From an uncultured Bdellovibrionales bacterium (lineage in GTDB: Bacteria > Patescibacteriota > Minisyncoccia > Moranbacterales > UBA1568), in NCBI GenBank assembly GCA_964436855.1, contig CAYTED010000005.1:2539-66538 (forward strand): DNA of 64,000 nt, written 5' to 3'. Position numbers and translations under genes: made by a program. Of the stretch, positions 91 to 26,950 are shown piece by piece. Under the pieces are notes generated by a model, which ran no database searches, was not told the DNA's origin, and worked only from the letters and a program-made list of their open reading frames with translations. How positions within the stretch are numbered: position 1 is the first letter of the stretch; each line of letters starts with the position of its first letter.

Positions 91-136
91 ATACTCGTAA
101 TTATATTAAATAGTTTTTATAGAGATACTTTTCAAC

Positions 137-171
137 AGTATACTTACGATTAGTATACTCATGAGTATACT
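137..171. promoter_or_regulatory. operator-like repeat: three copies of AGTATACT, including a perfect 20-bp palindrome at 152-171
   Basis: AGTATACT occurs at 137-144 and 152-159, and inverted at 164-171. The palindrome is agtatactca|tgagtatact. It lies in an AT-rich intergenic region. Confidence 0.35.
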
Positions 172-363
172 ATATGTCAATATCTCTATTCATACCTCAT
201 TTGAGCCAAAATACTGCTTACCTACGGATCCGTTTTTTCTTGCTTTTTCGACGGTTTTTTTCTATAATAGAGGTACTTATTTCACGTATGTTTTCCAAAA
301 AATCATTCACCTCAATATCACTATACGGAATGCTTTTTTCGCATGTTTTTGCCGTTTTTGCAT

Positions 364-413
364 TGACAAACTGTACATTCATGGATATATTGCCTATAGG
401 CAATATATCCATG
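364..413 (+). promoter_or_regulatory. sigma70-like promoter (TTGACA, 16-17 nt spacer, TATATT) overlapping a perfect 34-bp palindrome
   Basis: TTGACA at 364-369; TATATT/ATATTG at 386-392. Palindrome catggatatattgccta|taggcaatatatccatg spans 380-413. Confidence 0.35.
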
Positions 414-533
414 AAATAACGTACAATAGCATATTTATGAATATACAAGGATCTAACGGTCTTTTTTGTTTATATCCTTTCACTCCCCCGAGTATACCAA
501 AAACCTGCAGAAAAAATATTCTCCGTCAATATG

Positions 534-564
534 AAAAAAACAGTGGGCTTGCCACTGTTTTCTT
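534..564 (-). terminator. rho-independent terminator downstream of pepA
   Basis: Hairpin cagtgg-gcttg-ccactg at 541-557. It is flanked by A7 at 534-540 (a U-run on the minus-strand RNA) and TTTT at 558-561. Confidence 0.55.
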
Positions 565-570
565 ATCCCT

Positions 571-12963: not shown

Positions 12964-14817
12964 ATGATTTCCACGATGCTTTCGCGATGCCTTCGGCCAA
13001 CCTTTCTCCTCTCCGCCGTCCTTGCGGCGTATTTTTTGTTTGGACTCTCGCATCTCGAAAAATTCATCACCGCCGACGAACACTATTGGATCTACGAGCG
13101 CATTCCGGCGTATTTTGACGCAATCGGCGATGGCAAATGGAAAAAAACGCTCGTAAGCGACAAGCCCGGTGTTACCCTCGCGCTTATTTCCGGGCCAGCG
13201 CTTTTTTTCTTCGATCACCCCGAATCGCATTGCGCGGAAGGACAGGATAAAATCATCCGCTGCGATATCGCGCAGTCAGAATCTTTGTTATTCGCATTTC
13301 GATTTCCTCTTCTTCTTGCAAATCTCTTCTTCCTTCTCGTTTCATTTTTTCTTTTGCGAACCGCGTTCCAAAGCGATTGGGTCGCCCTTCTTGCCACTCT
13401 CTTCACCGCCACCTCACCGATTCTCGTCGGCATTTCACAAATTTCCAATCCCGACGCAATCCTTTGGTCGATCGGATTTGCCGCGATCGCCGGATACCTC
13501 GCGTGGCTTCGAACATATCGCTTTCGATTTCTTTTTTTTGCCGCACTCTTTTTTGGCTTCGCACTCCTTGCTAAATACGCCGCACTCATACTTCTTCCGT
13601 TCTTTCTCTTCTTTTCACTCGTGTTCTTTCTGTTCGAAAAAAATGACGATGCATCATTTCACAAAATATTCCGAGAACACCTCCTTTTCTTTCTTGCTCT
13701 TCCCATCATCGCATGCTGCGTGTTTGCATTCTTCCTTCCGGCGGTTCTCGTAAACCCCGATGGATTTTCAAAAACTTTGGCAGAAAATTTTCCGAAATTC
13801 AACCCGAAAACGCTCGGAATCGGGCTTCTGCTTTTTACCCTCCCCTTCCTTGACGCATTTCTTTTCCGGAGCCGAATATTCCTCGCGATCAAGCGCTTTT
13901 GGACAAAAAAACCATACACCGGCATTCGTCCCCTGCCGCTTGTTTTCTTGTTTGCCGCGCTCGTCGGCATGCGGTACGCTTTTCCGCAATGGGACATTTT
14001 CTCCGCCATTCCTTTTGATATGAAGGATCTCTCGAATGCGCGCTATTATGCCAAGAGTCCTCTCAATATCTGGGAAAAGATTTTCCTCGAAACGAATCCG
14101 TTTCTTTTCTCTCTCGCCCCGCTCACACTCTTTGGGATATTCGTCTCGTGGATCCTTGCAACCTTCCAAAAGAATTTTCGATTTCTCTTCGAAGTTACGG
14201 TGCTTTCGCTTTCCTTTTTTTATTTCCTCCTCGTGCTCATTATCGGCAACACGCTTGGCACGCCGCGATACCTTGTGCTTCTCTATCCTCTCGCCGCGCT
14301 TATTGCCGCGATCGGTTATGTCAATATTTTCTCTCTCTTGAAAGCTCGCGTATATTCTTTTCGATGTGTACGTGAGAAAGCTTTTTTCTTCCTCCTTATC
14401 GGATCTCTTATTCCGCTTTTTTCCACTACGCCGTTTTTCTTGAATTATTCAAACATTCTTCTTCCGCGACACGCACTCATAAGCGATGCGTGGGGCTATG
14501 GCGGATACGAAGCCGCGCAATATTTGAACGCTTTGCCGAATGCGAAAAACCTGACCGTCTGGTCGGATTACTACGGCGTGTGTGAATTTTTCATCGGTCA
14601 TTGCGTGACCGCGTACACCTTCGACCGCGAGACCATAAAACCGGATTATTATATCCTCACCCGTCGTGGAAAAATTCGCTATATGCCGCGTTTTGAACGA
14701 TGGGAACGAATCTCCGGCTTGCAAGCATATCGTTTCTACGACCGAACCGACCCCAATTGGTCGCTTTCTATCAATGGAAATCCAAACAATTCCATCCGCA
14801 TCTTCAAAACCCTCTAA
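12964..14817 (+). CDS. glycosyltransferase family 39 (ArnT/PMT-like) polytopic membrane protein
   Basis: More than 10 TM helices, a DE motif in the first extracytoplasmic loop (ITADEHYW), and a C-terminal soluble domain. Confidence 0.55.
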   Translation: MISTMLSRCLRPTFLLSAVLAAYFLFGLSHLEKFITADEHYWIYERIPAYFDAIGDGKWKKTLVSDKPGVTLALISGPALFFFDHPESHCAEGQDKIIRCDIAQSESLLFAFRFPLLLANLFFLLVSFFLLRTAFQSDWVALLATLFTATSPILVGISQISNPDAILWSIGFAAIAGYLAWLRTYRFRFLFFAALFFGFALLAKYAALILLPFFLFFSLVFFLFEKNDDASFHKIFREHLLFFLALPIIACCVFAFFLPAVLVNPDGFSKTLAENFPKFNPKTLGIGLLLFTLPFLDAFLFRSRIFLAIKRFWTKKPYTGIRPLPLVFLFAALVGMRYAFPQWDIFSAIPFDMKDLSNARYYAKSPLNIWEKIFLETNPFLFSLAPLTLFGIFVSWILATFQKNFRFLFEVTVLSLSFFYFLLVLIIGNTLGTPRYLVLLYPLAALIAAIGYVNIFSLLKARVYSFRCVREKAFFFLLIGSLIPLFSTTPFFLNYSNILLPRHALISDAWGYGGYEAAQYLNALPNAKNLTVWSDYYGVCEFFIGHCVTAYTFDRETIKPDYYILTRRGKIRYMPRFERWERISGLQAYRFYDRTDPNWSLSINGNPNNSIRIFKTL

Positions 14818-14821
14818 CATA

Positions 14822-14855
14822 CAAAGGACCGTCCTTAGCAAAGGACGGTCCTTTG
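14822..14855. repeat. REP-like palindromic hairpin (caaaggaccgtcctt-agca-aaggacggtcctttg)
   Basis: Perfect 15-bp stem. The same core caaaggaccgtcctttg recurs on the other side of the transposase gene. Confidence 0.6.
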
Positions 14856-14869
14856 TTAATCAGACTTTG

Positions 14870-15544
14870 TTAATCATGACAACTACCATACGAAAGCCAG
14901 TATTTGTGAAATTTTTCAAAACTCCCCTTGTCTTGAAAAAAATCTGGAAATTCTTTTTTATTCAAAATACTTGATTCAAGTCGCTCTATACCAAGATAAT
15001 CCATATAACTTGAGTATGGATATTGATGTAAATATTCCACAGCACCATCTATCGATTTCAGTCCAACTTTTTTCCAATTTGGCTCGATTATCTTTATAGG
15101 ATTCAAATGGATGTACGAATACAAATAATGAAAATAATTTTCTGTATGTACGTGTTCTGATTTAAACCTTCCTTCAAAAAGCACGCCAGATCGCTCATGT
15201 TTCTTATTTATATACATTGAAAATCCAGTAAGAAGCTTTTTCATAAATAAACTCGTTCCACCATCAACAATCTCGTGAACAAGGATATGAAAGTGATTTG
15301 GCATCAAACAATACGCGCCAATAGCAACCAATGGCTCTCCGCGATCCAAAGAAAATACATCCTTATATTCAATGTCTCCACTTTTTAATTTCCGCATATC
15401 AACCAACTCTGATCCATTGCATAAATAAAGCAGCACAAGAAATCGTCTATAATCTCGCTCATCCCAAAAAATCTTGCGTTTGTCGACGCCACGATTATAG
15501 AGATGATAGAACTCGTTTACTGCAAGCGGAATTCTTCTTTTCAT
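14870..15544 (-). CDS. REP-associated tyrosine transposase / IS200-like HUH-Y1 transposase (COG1943)
   Basis: YHLYNRG N-terminal motif, HUH motif LMPNHFHILVHE, GRFKSE block, and catalytic-Tyr motif YIHLNP. Confidence 0.8.
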   Translation of the reverse strand: MKRRIPLAVNEFYHLYNRGVDKRKIFWDERDYRRFLVLLYLCNGSELVDMRKLKSGDIEYKDVFSLDRGEPLVAIGAYCLMPNHFHILVHEIVDGGTSLFMKKLLTGFSMYINKKHERSGVLFEGRFKSEHVHTENYFHYLYSYIHLNPIKIIEPNWKKVGLKSIDGAVEYLHQYPYSSYMDYLGIERLESSILNKKEFPDFFQDKGSFEKFHKYWLSYGSCHD

Positions 15545-15559
15545 AATTATCTTCAGTAT

Positions 15560-15655
15560 ATTACAAAGGACCGTATATTACAAAGGACCGTCCTTTGCAA
15601 AGGACGGTCCTTTGTTGGTGGGGTCAGCCTACATTACAGCGGTCTTTCCGCTGTA
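15560..15655. repeat. REP-like repeat cluster: partial copy, a 17+17 bp perfect hairpin, and a subterminal 8-bp hairpin
   Basis: tattacaaaggaccgt occurs twice at 15560-15592. Hairpin caaaggaccgtcctttg / caaaggacggtcctttg at 15581-15614. Hairpin tacagcgg-tcttt-ccgctgta at 15635-15655. Confidence 0.55.
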
Positions 15656-15703
15656 TTGAAATCCAAACAATTCCATCCGTGTTTTTTCCACCGAAGGGCA
15701 AGA

Positions 15704-18700
15704 TTACCGCCCCTGATTATAGAGACTTCCGATCTCCGAAGAAGAAAGTGCTCGATTGTAAATACGAACTTCATCGATCGATCCGTCAAACGGATTTGAC
15801 CCATCGTCCGCTTCGGCACCGATACGCAGGTTGTATGTTCCGCTTGAATATATATTCCCGCTCGTCGATGAGGCAATACTACTCACATCCGTTCCGTTTA
15901 CATAAATCTTACAGTCGGAACCGTCATATGTGCCGACAAGAAAGTACCACTGCCCCGCCGTATACGTTGAGGTTGTGTCACATATTTCATTTGCTGTCGC
16001 CCCATCGGAAGAAACGGAAAAAGTAAATTTATTTGAAGAAGTATTGTCTACCGCAAGTAAGTACTGCCTCGAACCGCTTGCTCCCCATTTGGAAACAATT
16101 CTTTTATTCAGCGTCGTAACATCCGGCTTGACCCACGCCGATACGGTGATATTCGACGGCTCCACCGCATCTCCCATATCGATATAATCATCCGTTCCAT
16201 CAAAAGAAATTCCTTGCCCTATCCTGCCGATCGTCTTCACCGGACCACCTGTCAATGTTCCATTGTTCCCCCTTCCAGAACGATCGATCGTTACCGTACT
16301 GCTCGAAAAGCCTTTCCCATTAAACGGCCAGTAGCCCACAAGTCCGGTATCCACACCGCTCGGCGCCGTGGTACGGTAGAGACGTAACACTTCCTCAACA
16401 GAAAGAGGTCGATTATACAAACGAATATCGTCAAGTTTTCCATCAAACGGATTTCCCGCATCGGATTCGGCTCCAAAGTTAAGCGCCACCGCATTCGCAA
16501 GACTATTCACATTGCCAAATGTTCCCGTATTGGTTGTTGATTGTTCGATACCATTAATATACATCTTTGAAAGCGAGGAGGATGAGTCATTCCATATGAT
16601 TGTAAAATAATTCCACCCGGTAGATGTAAATGTGGAACTTGACTCCATCTGATACTCATCGGTTCCATCGGACACTTCGAAGGTAAGTTTATCGGTCGCA
16701 TCATCAACATAAACGATATAACCGGTATCGGTTGACGCGATTCCATTTCGTTTGGCGAGAATCGTATCATCGGTAGTAAAGGTATCCCGATTAAACCAAC
16801 CGGTTACAGTGAAATTCGCAGAATCCGCAATATCAAGAACCCCCGAAGCAGGATCGGAAACAGTGATATAATCATCCGTTCCATCAAAATCTACCGCGCC
16901 GTTGATCTGTCCTGTTGTCCATGAAGGACCGCCCGTGAGTGTTCCGGTGTTTGCATTTCCGGTTGCATCTGCGGCGCTCGTCCCGCTTCCGTCGTCGAGT
17001 TTCCAGTACCCGAGAAGACCCTCGGAAAGTGGCGTTGTCGACGAGGTATTTATTTTCGCCGGAGCTCCCTCGCGATACAACTGGTACATTTCCGATGCGG
17101 TAAGTCCCCGATTGAACACTCTGATTTCATCGACACTTCCGGTAAAGAACTGACTTGATCCATTGGTTGATCCGATGGTATCCGCCCCCGTAGGAGACCC
17201 CTGCGTGTATGTGGCATTGCCAAACGTAACCGATTGCGTTACAAGAAGCACTCCATCGAGATACAAATAAATCGTATCATTGGGAATATCGAGAACGCCG
17301 CTCACCAAGTGCCACTCATTGAGCGATGGCGCGGTTGCCGTTGCCTGCTGAAAAGAATCCCCCGATCCGCTCCGCCCCCCAACAGCGATTTTCCCGTTGT
17401 CATATAAACCAAGAAGTCCACCCGTCGATCCGGTCGCCACATCGTACGACAATACTCGAGCGTACGATGCCGCTGAAGGATGAGCGCTTGGTTTCATCCA
17501 TGCCGCAAGCGTAATCTGCGAGGCACCGCTCACATCCGGCCCGATTGCATTCGCCCCTAAACTCACATATTGATTCGATCCGTTCAGCGTCAGCGATTGA
17601 CCAACCGTTCCCACACTCTTCGTCGGGGTATTTGTAAGGGTGCCGTTATTCGCTGCTCCACTCCAATCTATTGTTCCTGTGGAAGTCGCGTAGCTTTCTC
17701 CGTCAAAAGACCAGTATCCTTTCAAGGCAGTATCGAGCGCGGTTGGTGCTGTCGTCTGATACAATCTTTCCGCCTCCTCATCCGATAATGCTCGATTGTA
17801 GAGCCTTGCCTCATCCACCTTTCCATTAAAATAATTTCCATAGGTGTCATATCCGATGCGCAATTCATCTGCATCGGTAATAATATTTCCTGAAATCGCC
17901 TGACTTCCAGTTCCGGAACGTCTCCCATTGATATATATCCGAACAAATCGCCCATCATATACACCCATAAGATGATACCACTGACCAGTCGAGAGCGTTT
18001 CCGAAGCATCCACACGCGTGCCGGTTGAGTACCATGTATTATTTGTTGTCGCCACGACAAAATGTACAGCACCAGTCGAATCAATATTCAAACGGTATTG
18101 TCCGACAGTATTTGATTTCGAGATTGGCATATAATTTGTCGCCGGCAAAGCATCCATATTGATCCATATTGAAAGCGACATCTGCGACATTCCCTCGTGA
18201 ATCGATTGATCCCCCATCGTGATATAGTCGTTCGTTCCATCGAGATCAACTCCTCCTCCGATTTGTCCCGTTGTCCATGTCGGACCATTTGTCAGTGTCC
18301 CATTCTTTGCATGTATACTTGAATCTGTTGCCGTCGTTCCACTTCCATCATCAAGTTTCCAATATCCCGCGAGACCATAGCTTAATGAATCGTTCTGCGG
18401 GGAATTATTGACAGTATTTGATCCAGCTTTCACATAGAGTTGTTGCACCTCGGTTGCCGAAAGCGCACGACTGTACACCCGAACATCGTCTATATACCCC
18501 TGAAAAGGGGTAAGGAGAGATCCTCCGTTCCGCCATGTCCCCACAAGCGGCTCATCTCCGGCATCAATATTTCCATTGGCAGCATCGCTGGTAGCCGCCA
18601 ATACACCATCAACATAAAGTTTGAGACGTTTCGATGAAAGCGTTTTGTCGAATGTCGTGCAAACGTGATACCACTTGCTATTCCATGTTCCTGTAGACTT

Positions 18701-19222
18701 TGCCAGAGAAACAGAATATGCCGTCGAGCTAATGCGAATATAACTGGAAAGCACAGTGCTATTTGTCGTCAGATATCCGGAGATGGTTACATAATCGCCG
18801 GTTGAATTTCCATGAGAAAATCCAGCTTTTGACGATTGCGTCGCGGTTGAGTAAAACCAGTGACACCAACTTCCCGCCGCCCCCACATCAAAAGTGGCGG
18901 CATCGGTGATAGCAACCCGGTCGTCACTTCCATCAAGACTGACCGCCTGGCCGACTTGCCCGCGAGTCAGTGTTGGTCCGTTCGTGAGCGTTCCGTTATG
19001 TCCGCCGCTTGACCGGTCATATGCCGTCGTACCGCTCACGTCGTCGCCATCAAATGTCCAATATCCTATCAAACCATTCGATGCATCTACGTTTGTTGAC
19101 TGTTGCAGTTTTACCGCCGCACGCGTCTTCGCCCATTCATACACCCCAAAACCGACCGACACGGTAATGGCGATAATAAAAACATATTGGAAGGCGCGGT
19201 GCCAAACGAGAGGGAGAGGCAT
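15704..19222 (-). CDS. giant cell-surface protein with about 6-7 tandem LamG/concanavalin-A-like domains
   Basis: N-terminal TM anchor. The block D(G)SG..A.D.S..GN.GTLTNGPT...GQ.G.A..FDG.DDY recurs throughout, with LY(N)RAL...E(V/I)..LY at the domain ends (Laminin_G_3-like). Confidence 0.75.
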   Translation of the reverse strand: MPLPLVWHRAFQYVFIIAITVSVGFGVYEWAKTRAAVKLQQSTNVDASNGLIGYWTFDGDDVSGTTAYDRSSGGHNGTLTNGPTLTRGQVGQAVSLDGSDDRVAITDAATFDVGAAGSWCHWFYSTATQSSKAGFSHGNSTGDYVTISGYLTTNSTVLSSYIRISSTAYSVSLAKSTGTWNSKWYHVCTTFDKTLSSKRLKLYVDGVLAATSDAANGNIDAGDEPLVGTWRNGGSLLTPFQGYIDDVRVYSRALSATEVQQLYVKAGSNTVNNSPQNDSLSYGLAGYWKLDDGSGTTATDSSIHAKNGTLTNGPTWTTGQIGGGVDLDGTNDYITMGDQSIHEGMSQMSLSIWINMDALPATNYMPISKSNTVGQYRLNIDSTGAVHFVVATTNNTWYSTGTRVDASETLSTGQWYHLMGVYDGRFVRIYINGRRSGTGSQAISGNIITDADELRIGYDTYGNYFNGKVDEARLYNRALSDEEAERLYQTTAPTALDTALKGYWSFDGESYATSTGTIDWSGAANNGTLTNTPTKSVGTVGQSLTLNGSNQYVSLGANAIGPDVSGASQITLAAWMKPSAHPSAASYARVLSYDVATGSTGGLLGLYDNGKIAVGGRSGSGDSFQQATATAPSLNEWHLVSGVLDIPNDTIYLYLDGVLLVTQSVTFGNATYTQGSPTGADTIGSTNGSSQFFTGSVDEIRVFNRGLTASEMYQLYREGAPAKINTSSTTPLSEGLLGYWKLDDGSGTSAADATGNANTGTLTGGPSWTTGQINGAVDFDGTDDYITVSDPASGVLDIADSANFTVTGWFNRDTFTTDDTILAKRNGIASTDTGYIVYVDDATDKLTFEVSDGTDEYQMESSSTFTSTGWNYFTIIWNDSSSSLSKMYINGIEQSTTNTGTFGNVNSLANAVALNFGAESDAGNPFDGKLDDIRLYNRPLSVEEVLRLYRTTAPSGVDTGLVGYWPFNGKGFSSSTVTIDRSGRGNNGTLTGGPVKTIGRIGQGISFDGTDDYIDMGDAVEPSNITVSAWVKPDVTTLNKRIVSKWGASGSRQYLLAVDNTSSNKFTFSVSSDGATANEICDTTSTYTAGQWYFLVGTYDGSDCKIYVNGTDVSSIASSTSGNIYSSGTYNLRIGAEADDGSNPFDGSIDEVRIYNRALSSSEIGSLYNQGR

Positions 19223-19297: not shown

Positions 19298-19425
19298 TTG
19301 ACAATTGAAATTTTTTCTGCTATTCTTTCTTTACAAACGGCTTCGGCCTCGGGATGTCCGAAAGGGCATCTCAGACAAATTCAGTAAAAGCGGTTACCAA
19401 AGCAATGCGGCAACCGCTTTTCTTA
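19298..19425 (+). ncRNA. candidate small RNA: promoter, structured ~90-nt transcript and terminator hairpin
   Basis: TTGACA at 19298-19303, 17 nt spacer, TATTCT at 19321-19326. The transcript contains a GAAA-capped 7-bp hairpin (gaugucc-GAAA-gggcauc). It ends in the hairpin aaaagcggtt...aaccgctttt followed by a T-rich tail. Confidence 0.25.
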
Positions 19426-19786
19426 ATTCTTGAAACTGTTTTTCCGGCAAAACCGCCAATTTCTTTTTCAATCGTTTTACATCAACCAATCGAAGCTGCG
19501 ACAGAATAGCCTGCCGTTCTCGATCGTCACTCAAATCAATGTCGAAATAATATTTCCCCTTTTTTATTTTCGTCGTCAATGGAATCGCCCAGAACACCTC
19601 TTTATTGAATTGTTTCAAAATGATGACCGGTCGCATAAAATCTTCTCCCTTGCCGTCCTGTTCATACCCAACATTAACACCCAAAGCACACCACCATATT
19701 TCACGTTCATTGAAATACACTCTCACTTGAGTGTTCTTATGCAAATTTTCTTTTTTCGTATGCCAGGGCTGAAAATCTTTTTTCAT
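19394..19786 (-). CDS. MazF/PemK-family endoribonuclease toxin-like protein with a ~20-aa N-terminal extension
   Basis: IWWCALGVNVGYEQDGKGEDFMRPVIIL...AIPLTTK aligns with the MazF/EndoA core (GsEQ.G.RPvlVI...P.T). Confidence 0.65.
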   Translation of the reverse strand: MKKDFQPWHTKKENLHKNTQVRVYFNEREIWWCALGVNVGYEQDGKGEDFMRPVIILKQFNKEVFWAIPLTTKIKKGKYYFDIDLSDDRERQAILSQLRLVDVKRLKKKLAVLPEKQFQELRKAVAALLW

Positions 19787-23071: not shown

Positions 23072-24682
23072 ATGTCTTTCTACCGAAAATACCGTCCACA
23101 GTTTTTCTCCGAAGTTGTCGGACAGGAATCGATCGTTCGAATCCTCTCCAATAGCCTTCTCTCCGGAAAGCCCGGGCAGGCCTATCTCTTTACCGGACCG
23201 CGCGGTACCGGGAAAACCACTCTCGCTCGACTTTTCGCCAAGGCCGCAAATTGCGCGAAACAAAAAAACGGCGAGGCGTGCGGGACATGCGATCACTGCC
23301 TTGCGATGAACGAAGGACGATCCTTTGATGTCATCGAAATCGATGCCGCATCGAATACCGGCGTCGACAATATCCGCGAACTCCGCGAAACGGTCAAGCT
23401 CCCCCCGACACTCGCCCCCTACAAGGTCTATATCATCGACGAGGCGCATATGCTCTCGATCGGCGCGTGGAATGCACTCTTGAAAACACTTGAAGAGCCT
23501 CCGGCGCACGTTATCTTCATTCTCGCCACCACCAATCCGAAAAAAGTTCCCGAGACTATCATTTCGCGCTGTCAGCGATTCGATCTTACCGGATTTCCGG
23601 TTTCAAAAATCGTCGAAAAATTGAAACGTATCGCGAAAGAAGAAAAACTCAAGATCGAAGATGGCGCCCTTGCCCTCGTTGCGAGTGCGGCACGCGGCGG
23701 AATGCGCGATGCTGAATCGCTCTTCGGTCAGGTTGCCGCGCTCTCCGGCAAAGAAATTACCGCCGAAGAAGTTTCCGCGCTCCTCGGACTCACCAACCGC
23801 GAAACGATTGAAGAGTTTCTCGACACCGTTACCACCCGCGGACTCCTCGATTCACTTTCACTCATTCGAACCTTTCCGGATAAAAATATCTCAACAGTCG
23901 ATTTCCTCGAAGCAACCCTCGAACATCTTCGTCTCGTACTGCTTGCCCACTCCGGAGCGATTGCGGATCATCCGGCATTCAACACTCTCACGAAAGAAGA
24001 ATCTTCTCGACTTTTTGATCGCGCGAAAACACTTTCATTCGATACAATCGTCTCCCTCCTTGAACATTTTCAAACCGCGCTCGAGGAATCCAAACACTCA
24101 TCTCTTCCCGAACTCGCGCTCGAAATCGCCGTCGCAAAACTCTCCTTTCCAATGAAAAATATTTCCCCTTCAGATACGCCTCATGGAAACCCTGTTTCCG
24201 AAAAAGAAAAAAAAGAAATTGCTCCTTCCAAAGAATCATCCCTTTCCACATCAACAAAACAAAGCGAGATCCCGCCTTCTCCTATGCCTTCACAACAAAT
24301 CACAAACACGCAGACTCCTCCTGAAACAGCCCCCTCTATCGACATCGAAACAGTCCGCGCGCGTCTTTCGGAAATCGAACGCGAAGCGCTCCGCTTGAAT
24401 GCCTCTCTCACTCTTGGTCTGACAAACAGCTTTCTCACCAAAATCGAAGGAAAAACCGTTTTCTTCGCGGCAAAGTTCCCTTTTCATCGCGACCAACTTA
24501 TGAAACAAGAGAACCGATTGACGCTTGAGAAAGCCTTTGCTACTATCCTCGGATACGAGCTTTCAGTTACGGTCATCCTTGAAAAAGATCTCGAGCAACC
24601 GAAGAAAAGCGACGCCAGTAATCCCCTCCTCTCCAAAGCGATGGAAATGCTCGGCGGAAAGCTCGTCCCGGAGGGAAATTAG
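23072..24682 (+). CDS. dnaX: DNA polymerase III subunit gamma/tau
   Basis: MSFYRKYRPQ.F..VVGQE N-terminus, Walker A GPRGTGKTT, zinc module CGTCDHC, SRC motif. Start moved to the internal ATG at 23072. Confidence 0.9.
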   Translation: MSFYRKYRPQFFSEVVGQESIVRILSNSLLSGKPGQAYLFTGPRGTGKTTLARLFAKAANCAKQKNGEACGTCDHCLAMNEGRSFDVIEIDAASNTGVDNIRELRETVKLPPTLAPYKVYIIDEAHMLSIGAWNALLKTLEEPPAHVIFILATTNPKKVPETIISRCQRFDLTGFPVSKIVEKLKRIAKEEKLKIEDGALALVASAARGGMRDAESLFGQVAALSGKEITAEEVSALLGLTNRETIEEFLDTVTTRGLLDSLSLIRTFPDKNISTVDFLEATLEHLRLVLLAHSGAIADHPAFNTLTKEESSRLFDRAKTLSFDTIVSLLEHFQTALEESKHSSLPELALEIAVAKLSFPMKNISPSDTPHGNPVSEKEKKEIAPSKESSLSTSTKQSEIPPSPMPSQQITNTQTPPETAPSIDIETVRARLSEIEREALRLNASLTLGLTNSFLTKIEGKTVFFAAKFPFHRDQLMKQENRLTLEKAFATILGYELSVTVILEKDLEQPKKSDASNPLLSKAMEMLGGKLVPEGN

Positions 24683-26753: not shown

Positions 26754-26950
26754 TCGACCCGGAGCTGCAAATAAAACTCGACGAGCAAAAACAAAAGCTC
26801 GACGCGATTTACGTTTCGGTTGAAAAAACACGGAAATATTTTCTTTGGACACTCGTCGCAACACTCGTTACCTTTGTCCTCCCGCTCATCGCTGTGATCG
26901 CGATCATTCCGTGGTTTCTCTCCACCATGCTCAAATCATATTCTCTCTAA
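26750..26950 (+). CDS. small membrane protein (hypothetical)
   Basis: ATGA overlap with the upstream gene. MIDPELQIKLDEQKQK... followed by one TM helix. Confidence 0.3.
   Translation: MIDPELQIKLDEQKQKLDAIYVSVEKTRKYFLWTLVATLVTFVLPLIAVIAIIPWFLSTMLKSYSL

What the first reader, a model, noticed from the sequence alone, without database searches (positions are those of the whole stretch)
14777..15679. REPtron-like mobile unit: HUH-Y1 (RAYT/IS200-like) transposase flanked by REP hairpins and a perfect 22-bp duplication
The 224-aa protein carries the hallmarks of COG1943 transposases: YHLYNRG, the HUH motif HFHILVH, and the catalytic-Tyr motif YIHLNP.

It is flanked by palindromic units that share the core caaaggaccgtcctttg, at 14822-14855 on one side and 15560-15614 on the other. 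A separate subterminal 8-bp hairpin lies at 15635-15655.

The whole unit is bracketed by an exact 22-nt direct repeat, GAAATCCAAACAATTCCATCCG (14777-14798 and 15658-15679). The left copy lies inside the 3' end of the GT39-like gene, so the element appears to have inserted at, or duplicated, the gene terminus.

RAYT/REP systems are best known from Proteobacteria, so finding one in this CPR-like context is notable.

Classical IS200/IS605 elements do not make target duplications. The 22-bp duplication therefore hints at a different insertion or capture mechanism, or at a recombination event.
Basis: seen in the sequence. Interest (0 to 1): 0.65.

Follow-up and report, generated by a model that had tools for sequence, protein, structure and literature searches.

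The report
CPR RAYT-like gene with cognate hairpins
A single-copy, domesticated-looking HUH tyrosine "transposase" gene of an ultra-small (CPR) bacterium sits between two copies of its own DNA hairpin, and the 22-base repeat around it is a stray copy of the neighbouring gene's end joined at the foot of a hairpin, not a classical insertion footprint.

Summary
The 224-aa protein is a Y1 HUH enzyme of the RAYT/TnpA_REP class; its best solved-structure match is E. coli TnpA_REP bound to a REP hairpin. It belongs to a very large CPR-wide family.

In 57 of 79 loci surveyed, the gene is flanked by a lineage-specific hairpin. 49 of those 57 hairpins share the apex AGG-N5-CCT. So "REPtron-like" is supported.

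"Mobile unit with a target duplication" is not supported:
- The gene looks single-copy; one homolog sits at the same place in every contig read.
- No further hairpin copy occurs in the other 63 kb of the window.
- The left 22-mer is native glycosyltransferase coding sequence that runs on natively to its stop codon.
- The right 22-mer is an orphan fragment of that gene end. It starts at the foot of an extra small hairpin.

Three other family loci (4 of 88 in all) show the same layout: complete gene, unit, hairpin foot, then an in-frame orphan 3' fragment of that gene. Their differences are mostly synonymous. The repeat is therefore best read as a scar of hairpin-ended DNA joining or exchange.

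The same 17-mer palindrome is dispersed in other CPR genomes, often in frame inside housekeeping genes.

The parts
12964..14817 (+). GT39/PMT_2-like glycosyltransferase gene. Its native 3' end (...NGNPNNSIRIFKTL*) holds the left repeat copy.
   Evidence: Pfam PMT_2. The family C-terminus consensus is ..GN[FY][IV][KR]V[VF][KR]V; the nearest ortholog P0122 ends NSIRIFKLR*. L006 is collinear up to 14817.
14777..14798 (+). Left copy of the 22-mer: native GT coding sequence.
14821..14856 (.). Left cognate palindrome (doublet of CAAAGGACSGTCCTTTG; 16-bp stem, loop AGCA), 3 nt after the GT stop and 13 nt after the tnp stop.
14870..15544 (-). RAYT-like Y1 HUH gene, 224 aa. HUH motif at H84/H86; catalytic-type Tyr144 in YIHLNP.
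   Evidence: Pfam Y1_Tnp 24.9 bits (cutoff 23); NCBIfam REP_Tyr_transpos 40 bits (cutoff 80). Motifs are invariant in alignment A1. AlphaFold model pLDDT 89; best PDB match 4ER8.
15557..15590 (.). Perfect 17-nt tandem duplication (GTATATTACAAAGGACC x2) that makes a truncated third palindrome copy. With the palindrome edge it forms a promoter-like TTGTAA-17-TATACT on the minus strand, just upstream of the tnp start.
   Evidence: the promoter is a consensus match only
15580..15615 (.). Right cognate palindrome: perfect 36-nt palindrome, 97% inverted repeat of the left one.
15635..15655 (.). Small extra hairpin TACAGCGG-TCTTT-CCGCTGTA. The orphan GT fragment begins at its foot.
   Evidence: Its loop and closing pairs resemble the commonest family hairpin class GG-TCTTG-CC.
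15655..15691 (+). Orphan copy of the GT 3' end. 25 nt match with 1 mismatch (exact 22-mer at 15658-15679). Four more codons are similar at the protein level (IRVFST versus IRIFKT).
   Evidence: confirmed in independent contig L165
15704..19222 (-). LamG/Laminin_G_3 surface-protein gene (1172 aa), immediately upstream of the unit on the same strand. Context only. Part of a block absent from the nearest relative L006.
   Evidence: The same gene order occurs in relatives L003, L074 and L077; L080 and L002 have an FG-GAP gene instead.

Best explanation
The locus is a REPtron-like module. It consists of a single-copy, domesticated-type Y1 HUH enzyme of the RAYT/TnpA_REP class and two copies of the hairpin it presumably recognises as single-stranded DNA.

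By analogy with E. coli TnpA_REP and IS608 TnpA, the likely chemistry (inferred) is this: the enzyme binds the extruded hairpin, cuts one strand near its foot through Tyr144 and the HUH-bound metal, and re-joins the ends. This would occasionally move or copy hairpins and join them to other single-stranded DNA.

The 22-base repeat is not an insertion footprint. The left copy is the native end of the glycosyltransferase gene. The right copy is an orphan fragment of a GT gene end, joined at the foot of an extra hairpin on the far side of the unit.

The most likely origin (inferred) is a hairpin-ended joining event. A DNA segment carrying a GT 3' end plus the unit was exchanged or integrated, with homology in GT on one side and a non-homologous joint at a hairpin foot on the other. 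The joint landed a few dozen bases upstream of the resident gene's stop codon, so a short stretch was duplicated.

Whether the joint was made by the HUH enzyme, or merely ended at a nuclease-resistant hairpin, is open.
For: **Enzyme class.** HUH (N83-H84-F85-H86) and Y144-x3-N148-P149 are invariant in 28 homologs. Foldseek's best PDB match is 4ER8, TnpA_REP bound to a REP hairpin (E = 1.9e-6), followed by the IS608 and ISDra2 transposases.

**Cognate hairpins across the family.**
- All nine closer homolog loci examined carry AAGGACSGTCCTT-type palindromes (or, in L074, a variant) on both sides of the gene.
- In 69 metagenome loci, 45 share an inverted word of at least 11 nt between the two flanks, against 4 in controls.
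- 57 of 79 loci have a shared flanking hairpin. 49 of those 57 have the apex AGG-N5-CCT; about 2 are expected from shuffled stems.

**Domesticated behaviour.** Homolog P0055 has the same neighbours in all 24 contigs read. There is one copy in the window.

**Dispersal of hairpins.**
- 8 of 33 loci carry a further copy of their own hairpin more than 250 nt from the gene.
- The exact 17-mer lies on 3-5 contigs in each of several CPR genomes. One MAG has it both around its tnp gene (L017) and inside glmS on another contig (L050).

**The repeat in the window.** The left copy is native. The orphan starts 0-2 nt from the hairpin at 15635-15655.

**The same layout elsewhere.** Three more loci show it, with orphans starting 0-6 nt from a hairpin foot, in frame and ending at the same stop codon:
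- L159: 207 nt, 85% identity.
- L144: 123 nt, 70% identity, the pheT end.
- L154: 44 nt, 82% identity; 7 of 8 differences are silent (six synonymous codon changes plus TAA/TAG).

**Precedent.** Ton-Hoang et al. (PMC3333891) showed cleavage and strand transfer by TnpA_REP and noted that such units can sequester flanking gene fragments.
Against: - No biochemical data exist for this family.
- The hairpins lack the GT[AG]G guide of canonical REPs.
- The NCBIfam RAYT model scores 40 bits, below its cutoff of 80.
- The window shows no dispersed hairpin copy in 63 kb.
- Only 4 of 88 loci have orphans, and no common sequence motif was seen at the four joints.
- In the window the orphan is short and identical to its source, unlike the three diverged cases, so it may have a different origin, such as a short templated patch.
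- Close relatives place the unit directly after a LamG or FG-GAP gene. This fits vertical inheritance of LamG-unit adjacency better than import of the unit together with the GT gene.
Confidence: 0.6

Rival explanations
1. An autonomous IS200/IS605-like insertion sequence recently inserted into the end of the GT gene and produced a 22-bp target duplication.
For: - The unit is compact (about 0.8 kb), with one Y1 gene and hairpins at both ends.
- An exact 22-nt direct repeat flanks it.
- The nearest GT ortholog has no unit downstream.
Against: - Native GT sequence continues for 19 nt beyond the left copy, and the ortholog shares CATCTTCAA there. The repeat therefore does not mark the insertion point.
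- The Y motif is Y-x3-NP, not the IS200 Y-x3-Q (Table 1 of PMC6006769).
- No second copy exists in the window.
- A homolog sits at a fixed location in all 24 contigs read.
- 84 of 88 family loci have no such repeat.
- The block missing from L006 is about 5 kb (unit + LamG + MazF-like gene), not the unit alone.
Confidence: 0.07
2. The repeat is a scar of ordinary recombination, and the HUH enzyme plays no part. Options include homology-facilitated illegitimate recombination of imported DNA, or a short templated repair patch. In this view the stable hairpins merely act as exonuclease blocks or break sites that define DNA ends.
For: - The orphan fragments in L144, L154 and L159 differ from the intact gene ends mainly at synonymous sites. 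They are therefore alleles from other lineages, not decayed local copies.
- The hairpins are very stable, -19 kcal/mol.
- CPR bacteria are reported to carry competence and homologous-recombination genes (PMC12455944).
- No shared cleavage motif was seen at the four joints.
Against: - The joints lie within 0-6 nt of a hairpin foot in 4 of 4 cases. That position is close to where Y1 enzymes are known to cut.
- The unit always lies at the heterologous end of the duplicated segment.
- Neither point excludes a passive role for the hairpin.
Confidence: 0.25
3. The palindromes are transcription terminators or operator sites, and the protein is a fully domesticated DNA-binding regulator that has no DNA-cutting or DNA-moving activity today.
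For: - The gene is single-copy and, for homolog P0055, at a fixed location.
- The palindromes sit 3-13 nt after the stops of the convergent GT and tnp genes.
- A promoter-like site overlaps the right palindrome.
Against: - The HUH and Tyr catalytic residues are invariant.
- No T-tract follows the stems, and the terminator scan does not call them.
- Identical 17-mers are inserted in frame in LigA, RecG, AlaRS, GlmS, PheT, CysRS, UvrC and a Mur ligase of other CPR genomes, and inside tnp genes themselves. Both facts imply movement.
Confidence: 0.08

Closest known systems
E. coli TnpA_REP (RAYT) and its REPtron (Nunvar 2010; Ton-Hoang 2012, PMC3333891; structure 4ER8, PMC3479197)
   Same: - Y1 HUH fold; it is the best structural match.
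- Y-x3-NP tyrosine motif.
- Single-copy gene flanked by its cognate palindromes in inverted orientation.
- Palindrome doublets resembling BIME/REPIN units.
- Capture of flanking gene fragments has been noted for REPtrons.
   Different: - Only about 11% sequence identity.
- NCBIfam RAYT score is 40, below the cutoff of 80.
- It has about 70 extra C-terminal residues.
- The hairpins have no GT[AG]G foot and are perfect palindromes with an AGG-N5-CCT apex.
- Hairpin copy number appears low: none elsewhere in 63 kb here, roughly one per 25 kb in other loci.
- Many copies are intragenic rather than extragenic.
TnpA_Y1 subclass 2.1 of Quentin et al. 2018 (= Bertels Group 1 RAYTs; partly the TIRYTs of Di Nocera 2013)
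   Same: - Key motifs match the second motif set of subclass 2.1: NH[YF]H, an FQ-like LFEGRF, and Y[IV]HLNP.
- Length is about 224-238 aa, with a C-terminal extension.
   Different: - Subclass 2.1 was reported to have no REP-like sequences near the gene, whereas this CPR family has them in most loci.
- The TIRYT inverted-repeat consensus GGGG[AT][CG]A[CG] is absent.
- The assignment rests on motif comparison only; no joint phylogeny was made.
TnpA_Y1 subclass 2.4 (Bertels Group 4) and the intragenic REPs of Di Nocera et al. 2013 (PMC3733652)
   Same: [quoted passage not shown]
- Hairpins also lie inside replication and repair genes such as LigA, RecG and UvrC.
   Different: - The Y motif of subclass 2.4 is YIxNNP, and its REPs carry GT[AG]G, sometimes as a 'double foot'. 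This family has neither.
IS200/IS605 insertion sequences (IS608, ISDra2)
   Same: - Y1 HUH fold (Foldseek E about 2e-3).
- Sub-terminal hairpins recognised as ssDNA.
- No classical target duplication.
   Different: - Those enzymes have a Y-x3-Q motif, are about 150 aa, occur as many near-identical copies per genome, and have different imperfect hairpins at the two ends.
- None of these features is seen here.

Membership tests
RAYT / TnpA_REP (class 2 TnpA_Y1) | Y1 HUH nuclease fold with an HuH motif and a single catalytic Tyr in a Y-x3-NP motif | tested here: met
   NHFH and YIHLNP are invariant in alignment A1. Pfam Y1_Tnp scores 24.9, above its cutoff of 23. The best PDB fold match is 4ER8.
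RAYT / TnpA_REP (class 2 TnpA_Y1) | Reaches the curated NCBIfam equivalog score for REP_Tyr_transpos (80 bits) | tested here: not met
   40 bits, E = 3.4e-10, covering residues 72-151 only. It is a distant relative, not an equivalog.
RAYT / TnpA_REP (class 2 TnpA_Y1) | Gene flanked by cognate palindromes in inverted orientation (REPtron) | tested here: met
   Window: 36-nt arms, 97% complementary. Family: 57 of 79 loci have a shared flanking hairpin.
RAYT / TnpA_REP (class 2 TnpA_Y1) | Canonical REP: conserved 5' GT[AG]G tetranucleotide at the hairpin foot | tested here: not met
   No GTAG or GTGG lies at the foot of either palindrome. The family hairpins instead conserve the apex AGG-N5-CCT.
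RAYT / TnpA_REP (class 2 TnpA_Y1) | Cognate palindromes dispersed through the same genome, mostly extragenic, at high copy number | tested here: inconclusive
- In other CPR genomes the same 17-mer lies on 2-5 contigs.
- 8 of 33 loci carry a distant copy of their own hairpin.
- However, 28 of 38 copies lie in long open frames.
RAYT / TnpA_REP (class 2 TnpA_Y1) | Single or low copy, stable location (housekeeping-like distribution) | tested here: met
   One copy in the window. P0055 has the same context in all 24 contigs read. Most homolog clusters were seen on 1-3 contigs.
IS200/IS605 insertion sequences | Y-x3-Q tyrosine motif and a core-only protein of about 150 aa | tested here: not met
   The motif is YIHLNP and the protein is 224 aa (criteria from PMC6006769).
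IS200/IS605 insertion sequences | Several near-identical copies per genome in different contexts | tested here: not met
   No second copy in 64 kb. No homolog was found in more than one context. The whole genome was not available.
Integrative element using an att duplication of a gene 3' end | Encodes a tyrosine or serine recombinase, and carries an att core identical at both ends that includes the replaced gene end | tested here: not met
   The only gene between the repeats is the Y1 HUH gene. The layout (complete gene, insert, orphan 3' fragment) resembles attL/attR, but no integrase is present.
TIRYT (RAYT homologs with long terminal inverted repeats, Di Nocera 2013) | Flanking TIRs with the consensus GGGG[AT][CG]A[CG] | tested here: not met
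   The flanking inverted repeats are the palindromes themselves. L074 and L077 have 39-41-nt inverted repeats, but the consensus is absent.

The most novel reading that the evidence does not exclude
The CPR RAYT-like enzymes may act on single-stranded DNA entering or replicating in the cell. They would join the foot of their cognate hairpin to a nearby single strand. This would let a DNA segment that has homology on only one side be integrated. The by-products would be orphan gene ends, and hairpins would be seeded in frame into essential genes.

If so, the unit is a recombination module that drives exchange of neighbouring variable genes, here large LamG and FG-GAP surface proteins. The orphan junctions would be natural in vivo footprints of RAYT activity, which has never been observed in vivo.
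Probability: 0.15. Interest if true: 0.8.

Novelty: new variant of a known kind. Interest (0 to 1): 0.55.

Why it matters
What RAYTs do in living cells is an old open question. The only activity data come from in vitro work on a few proteobacterial enzymes.

This locus belongs to a very large, undescribed CPR clade with several useful properties:
- The gene-hairpin pairing is clear.
- The hairpins co-vary with the protein but keep a fixed apex, AGG-N5-CCT. That gives a concrete recognition hypothesis.
- Hairpins have been inserted in frame into essential genes.
- A few loci preserve junctions between a hairpin foot and a stray gene end.

These junctions give testable predictions about where the enzyme cuts and joins. 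They may also bear on how reduced genomes exchange DNA.

For annotation, the point is practical: these genes should not be read as active insertion sequences, and the 22-bp repeat should not be read as a target duplication.

Tried and rejected
**REP census of the source genome.**
- The overall number of hits (67) is about what I calculate for chance. Only the CPR enrichment and the multi-contig genomes are informative.

**Weak palindrome match at 23311.** It lies in dnaX and encodes what I recognise as the conserved DnaX stretch ..EGRSFDVIEIDAAS... Rejected as a REP.

**20-nt match of the spacer to 26815-26834.** It lies inside a coding region and is marginal (E = 0.009). Treated as chance.

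**Sequence search of the PDB.** The protein alone gave nothing, and the profile gave only E of about 0.6 for ISDra2 TnpA and 4ER8. The relationship needed a fold comparison.

**Classical TSD, tandem duplication followed by deletion, and Campbell integration through the repeat.**
- The TSD fails because native sequence follows the left copy.
- The tandem-duplication route needs two extra coincident events.
- Campbell integration through 22 nt, or through 70%-identical stretches (L144), is below what homologous recombination normally uses.

**Hairpin 537-561.** It resembles the small hairpin 15635-15655 (ACAGTGG versus ACAGCGG, with a compensating change). It is followed by a T-run after the aminopeptidase gene and is most simply a terminator. 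Not counted as a second REP family.

**A shared cleavage motif at the four orphan joints.** None was found. 'CCG|T' recurs at two junctions in the window, but that is anecdotal.

**'Large surface-protein gene upstream' as a family rule.** It holds only for relatives at 67% identity or more. It does not hold for the 42-55% relatives.
Full report
**1. Observation**

- The 22-mer GAAATCCAAACAATTCCATCCG occurs exactly twice in the window, at 14777-14798 and 15658-15679. No shuffle gave even one match. With one mismatch the repeat is 25 nt, starting at 14774 and 15655.
- The left palindrome (14821-14856) folds as single-stranded DNA into a 16-bp stem (-19 kcal/mol, z = -11).
- The right one (15580-15615) is a perfect 36-nt palindrome.
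- A perfect 17-nt tandem duplication (15557-15590) adds a truncated third copy.
- The small hairpin at 15635-15655 has an 8-bp stem (z = -6).
- The 224-aa ORF (14870-15544, minus strand) carries EFYHLYNRG, NHFHILVH and YIHLNP.
- Two contigs of an independent assembly of the same sample each contain one repeat copy in the same context. Both end inside the right palindrome. The structure is therefore not an assembly artefact.

**2. The protein**

- Pfam Y1_Tnp is just above its cutoff (24.9 versus 23).
- The NCBIfam RAYT equivalog model matches but stays well below its cutoff (40 versus 80).
- In an alignment of 28 homologs at 50-77% identity, the HuH motif (N83 H84 F85 H86), Y144-I-H-L-N148-P149 and an N-terminal E-x-Y-H-x-Y-x-R-G are invariant.
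- An AlphaFold model (pLDDT 89) matches E. coli TnpA_REP bound to a REP hairpin best (4ER8, E = 1.9e-6). The IS608 and ISDra2 transposases follow.
- Against Table 1 of Quentin et al. 2018, the motifs NHFH, LFEGRF and YIHLNP fit class 2 (RAYT). Within class 2 they fit the second motif set of subclass 2.1 (Bertels Group 1). For that group those authors found no associated REPs. This placement rests on motifs only.

**3. The family and its hairpins**

The search returned 5,739 homologs at E <= 0.001.

Closer homologs:
- The nine closer homolog loci I inspected are flanked on both sides by AAGGACSGTCCTT-type palindromes. One (L074) has a variant, TCAAGGTCWGACCTTGA.

Metagenome survey (80 loci, 42-55% identity):
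- The exact core is rare, but the architecture holds.
- 45 of 69 loci share an inverted word of at least 11 nt between the upstream and downstream flanks, against 4 of 69 in an internal control.
- 57 of 79 loci have a perfect-stem hairpin upstream whose apex recurs downstream.
- The stems differ from lineage to lineage, but 49 of 57 hairpins keep the apex AGG-N5-CCT. Shuffled stems give 2.2 on average and at most 6.
- The window's AAGG-ACCGT-CCTT fits this pattern.
- This is the pattern expected for a protein that reads the hairpin tip while the stem co-evolves.

**4. Is it mobile?**

The gene itself does not behave like an insertion sequence.
- There is one copy in 64 kb.
- Homolog clusters are typically seen on one to three contigs.
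- The most widely sampled homolog, P0055, has identical neighbours in all 24 contigs read.

The hairpins do appear to spread.
- 8 of 33 loci with enough flank carry another copy of their own hairpin more than 250 nt from the gene, about one per 25 kb. One of the eight is an AT-rich 13-mer and may be chance.
- The exact 17-mer of the window lies on 3-5 different contigs in each of several CPR genomes. CPR genomes account for about 40 of the 67 hits in a collection where, from my own knowledge, they hold only a small share of the bases.
- One MAG has the 17-mer both around its tnp gene (L017) and inside glmS on another contig (L050).

Unexpectedly, 28 of 38 CPR copies lie in long open reading frames.
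- Pfam confirms in-frame copies in the LigA adenylation domain, RecG (the same site in two distant lineages), AlaRS, GlmS, PheT, CysRS, UvrC and a Mur ligase.
- The palindrome is free of stop codons in all six frames.
- Copies also occur in frame inside tnp genes (L159, L017, L021, L027).
- Both traits are known from other RAYT groups.

In the window itself no dispersed copy exists. The one weak match, in dnaX, is native coding sequence.

**5. The 22-mer**

The GT39-like family ends ...GN[FY][IV][KR]V[VF][KR]V. The window's ...NSIRIFKTL* fits this, and the 81%-identical ortholog P0122 ends ...NSIRIFKLR*.

In that relative (L006):
- The DNA reads GAAATCCAAACAACTCCATCCG-CATCTTCAA..., that is, the 22-mer with one change plus the same next nine bases.
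- No unit follows.
- L006 is collinear with the window up to 14817 and again from about 19885. The window-specific block is therefore about 5 kb: the unit, the LamG gene and a PemK/MazF-like ORF.

Because native sequence continues past the left copy, the repeat cannot be a target duplication of the 0.8-kb unit. The right copy is an orphan.
- Similarity starts abruptly at 15655, at the foot of the small hairpin.
- It runs through the 22-mer.
- It continues only at the protein level for four codons (IRVFST versus IRIFKT).
- It then reads on to its own stop, overlapping the LamG stop.

**6. The same layout elsewhere**

A sensitive comparison of both flanks in 88 loci found non-hairpin repeats in three more.

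| Locus | Orphan length, identity | Source gene | Orphan position |
|---|---|---|---|
| L159 | 207 nt, 85% | tRNA-binding-protein gene | directly after the downstream hairpin |
| L144 | 123 nt, 70% | pheT end | about 6 nt after the hairpin |
| L154 | 44 nt, 82% | DEAD-box helicase | 1-2 nt from the hairpin |

- L144 also carries a second copy of the gyrB upstream region.
- In every case the order is: complete gene, (cargo), unit, hairpin foot, orphan 3' fragment, native downstream DNA.
- Every orphan is in frame and ends at the same stop codon. The differences are mostly synonymous or conservative; in L154, 7 of 8 are silent (six synonymous codon changes plus TAA/TAG).
- The two copies are therefore alleles that diverged as working genes in different lineages. 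They are not local duplicates that decayed.

**7. Mechanism**

Shown:
- A RAYT-class enzyme with intact catalytic residues.
- Cognate hairpins with a conserved apex.
- Hairpin spread, including in-frame insertions.
- Orphan gene ends joined at hairpin feet.

Inferred:
- The enzyme binds the extruded hairpin on single-stranded DNA and cuts and re-joins near its foot, as TnpA_REP does in vitro.
- The repeats arise when a segment that ends at such a hairpin is integrated with homology only on the gene side. The non-homologous joint then falls slightly upstream of the resident stop codon.

A passive variant is not excluded: the hairpin may only protect or define a DNA end. The window's orphan is short and identical to its source, so it could also be a small templated patch.

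One point argues against import of GT together with the unit. Relatives at 67% identity or more place the unit directly after a LamG or FG-GAP gene on the same strand. That rule does not hold for the more distant relatives.

**8. Comparison and novelty**

The locus works like a REPtron. It differs in these respects:
- It fails the curated RAYT equivalog score.
- It lacks the GT[AG]G guide.
- Its motifs resemble those of a subclass reported to lack REPs.
- Its hairpins are low-copy and often intragenic.

Full-text searches found no paper linking RAYT, PF01797 or COG1943 with CPR bacteria. The only near hit is a passing mention of a KEGG-annotated copy in an archaeon.

I rate it a new variant of a known kind.

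Noticed in passing
L059:5449-5491; L061:6981-7022; L033:2446-2462; L056:3465-3481; L050:6486-6502; L018:7011-7027; L051:5359-5375; L048:5217-5233; L024:1215-1254: The same 17-mer palindrome that flanks the window's gene lies in frame inside housekeeping genes of other CPR genomes: the LigA adenylation domain, RecG (the same site in a Saccharibacteria and a Kaiserbacteria genome), AlaRS, GlmS, PheT, CysRS, UvrC and a Mur ligase. It encodes KGPSF, KDGPL, KDRPL or QRTVL. The palindrome has no stop codon in any of the six frames.
   Followed up: partly
L159:1359-1379 (also L017:735-751, L021:6032-6065, L027:2843-2863): A copy of the cognate hairpin sits in frame inside the RAYT-like gene itself. 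In L159 it lies just after the HuH motif and adds about 17 residues. This trait has been described for TnpA_Y1 subclass 2.4.
   Followed up: partly
window 15557-15590: A perfect 17-nt tandem duplication (GTATATTACAAAGGACC x2) ends at the apex of the palindrome half-site. Together with the palindrome edge it forms a promoter-like TTGTAA-17-TATACT upstream of the tnp start on the minus strand.
   Followed up: partly
window 15704-19222 (-); L003:2144-4936; L074:494-3943; L077:2-2689; L080:28-2400; L002:1-4951: In all relatives at 67% identity or more, the RAYT-like gene lies immediately downstream of a very large LamG or FG-GAP surface-protein gene, on the same strand. More distant relatives do not follow this rule.
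   Followed up: partly
window 19394-19786 (-): A PemK/MazF-like toxin ORF (130 aa) lies in the ~5-kb block that the nearest relative (L006) lacks. No partner antitoxin was looked for.
   Followed up: no
window 100-565: A non-coding, AT-rich region of about 450 nt holds an 18-bp-stem perfect palindrome (378-415) and nested TAGTATACT inverted repeats (137-172). A terminator-like hairpin (537-561) has a stem, ACAGTGG/CCACTGT, that resembles the small hairpin at 15635-15655 with a compensating change.
   Followed up: no
L144:3905-3945 and L144:5019-5058: In L144 the gyrB upstream region (40 nt, 90% identity) is duplicated as well as the pheT end. Two diverged versions of the whole pheT-gyrB spacer therefore flank the unit. 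One version contains a 112-aa ORF that the other lacks.
   Followed up: partly
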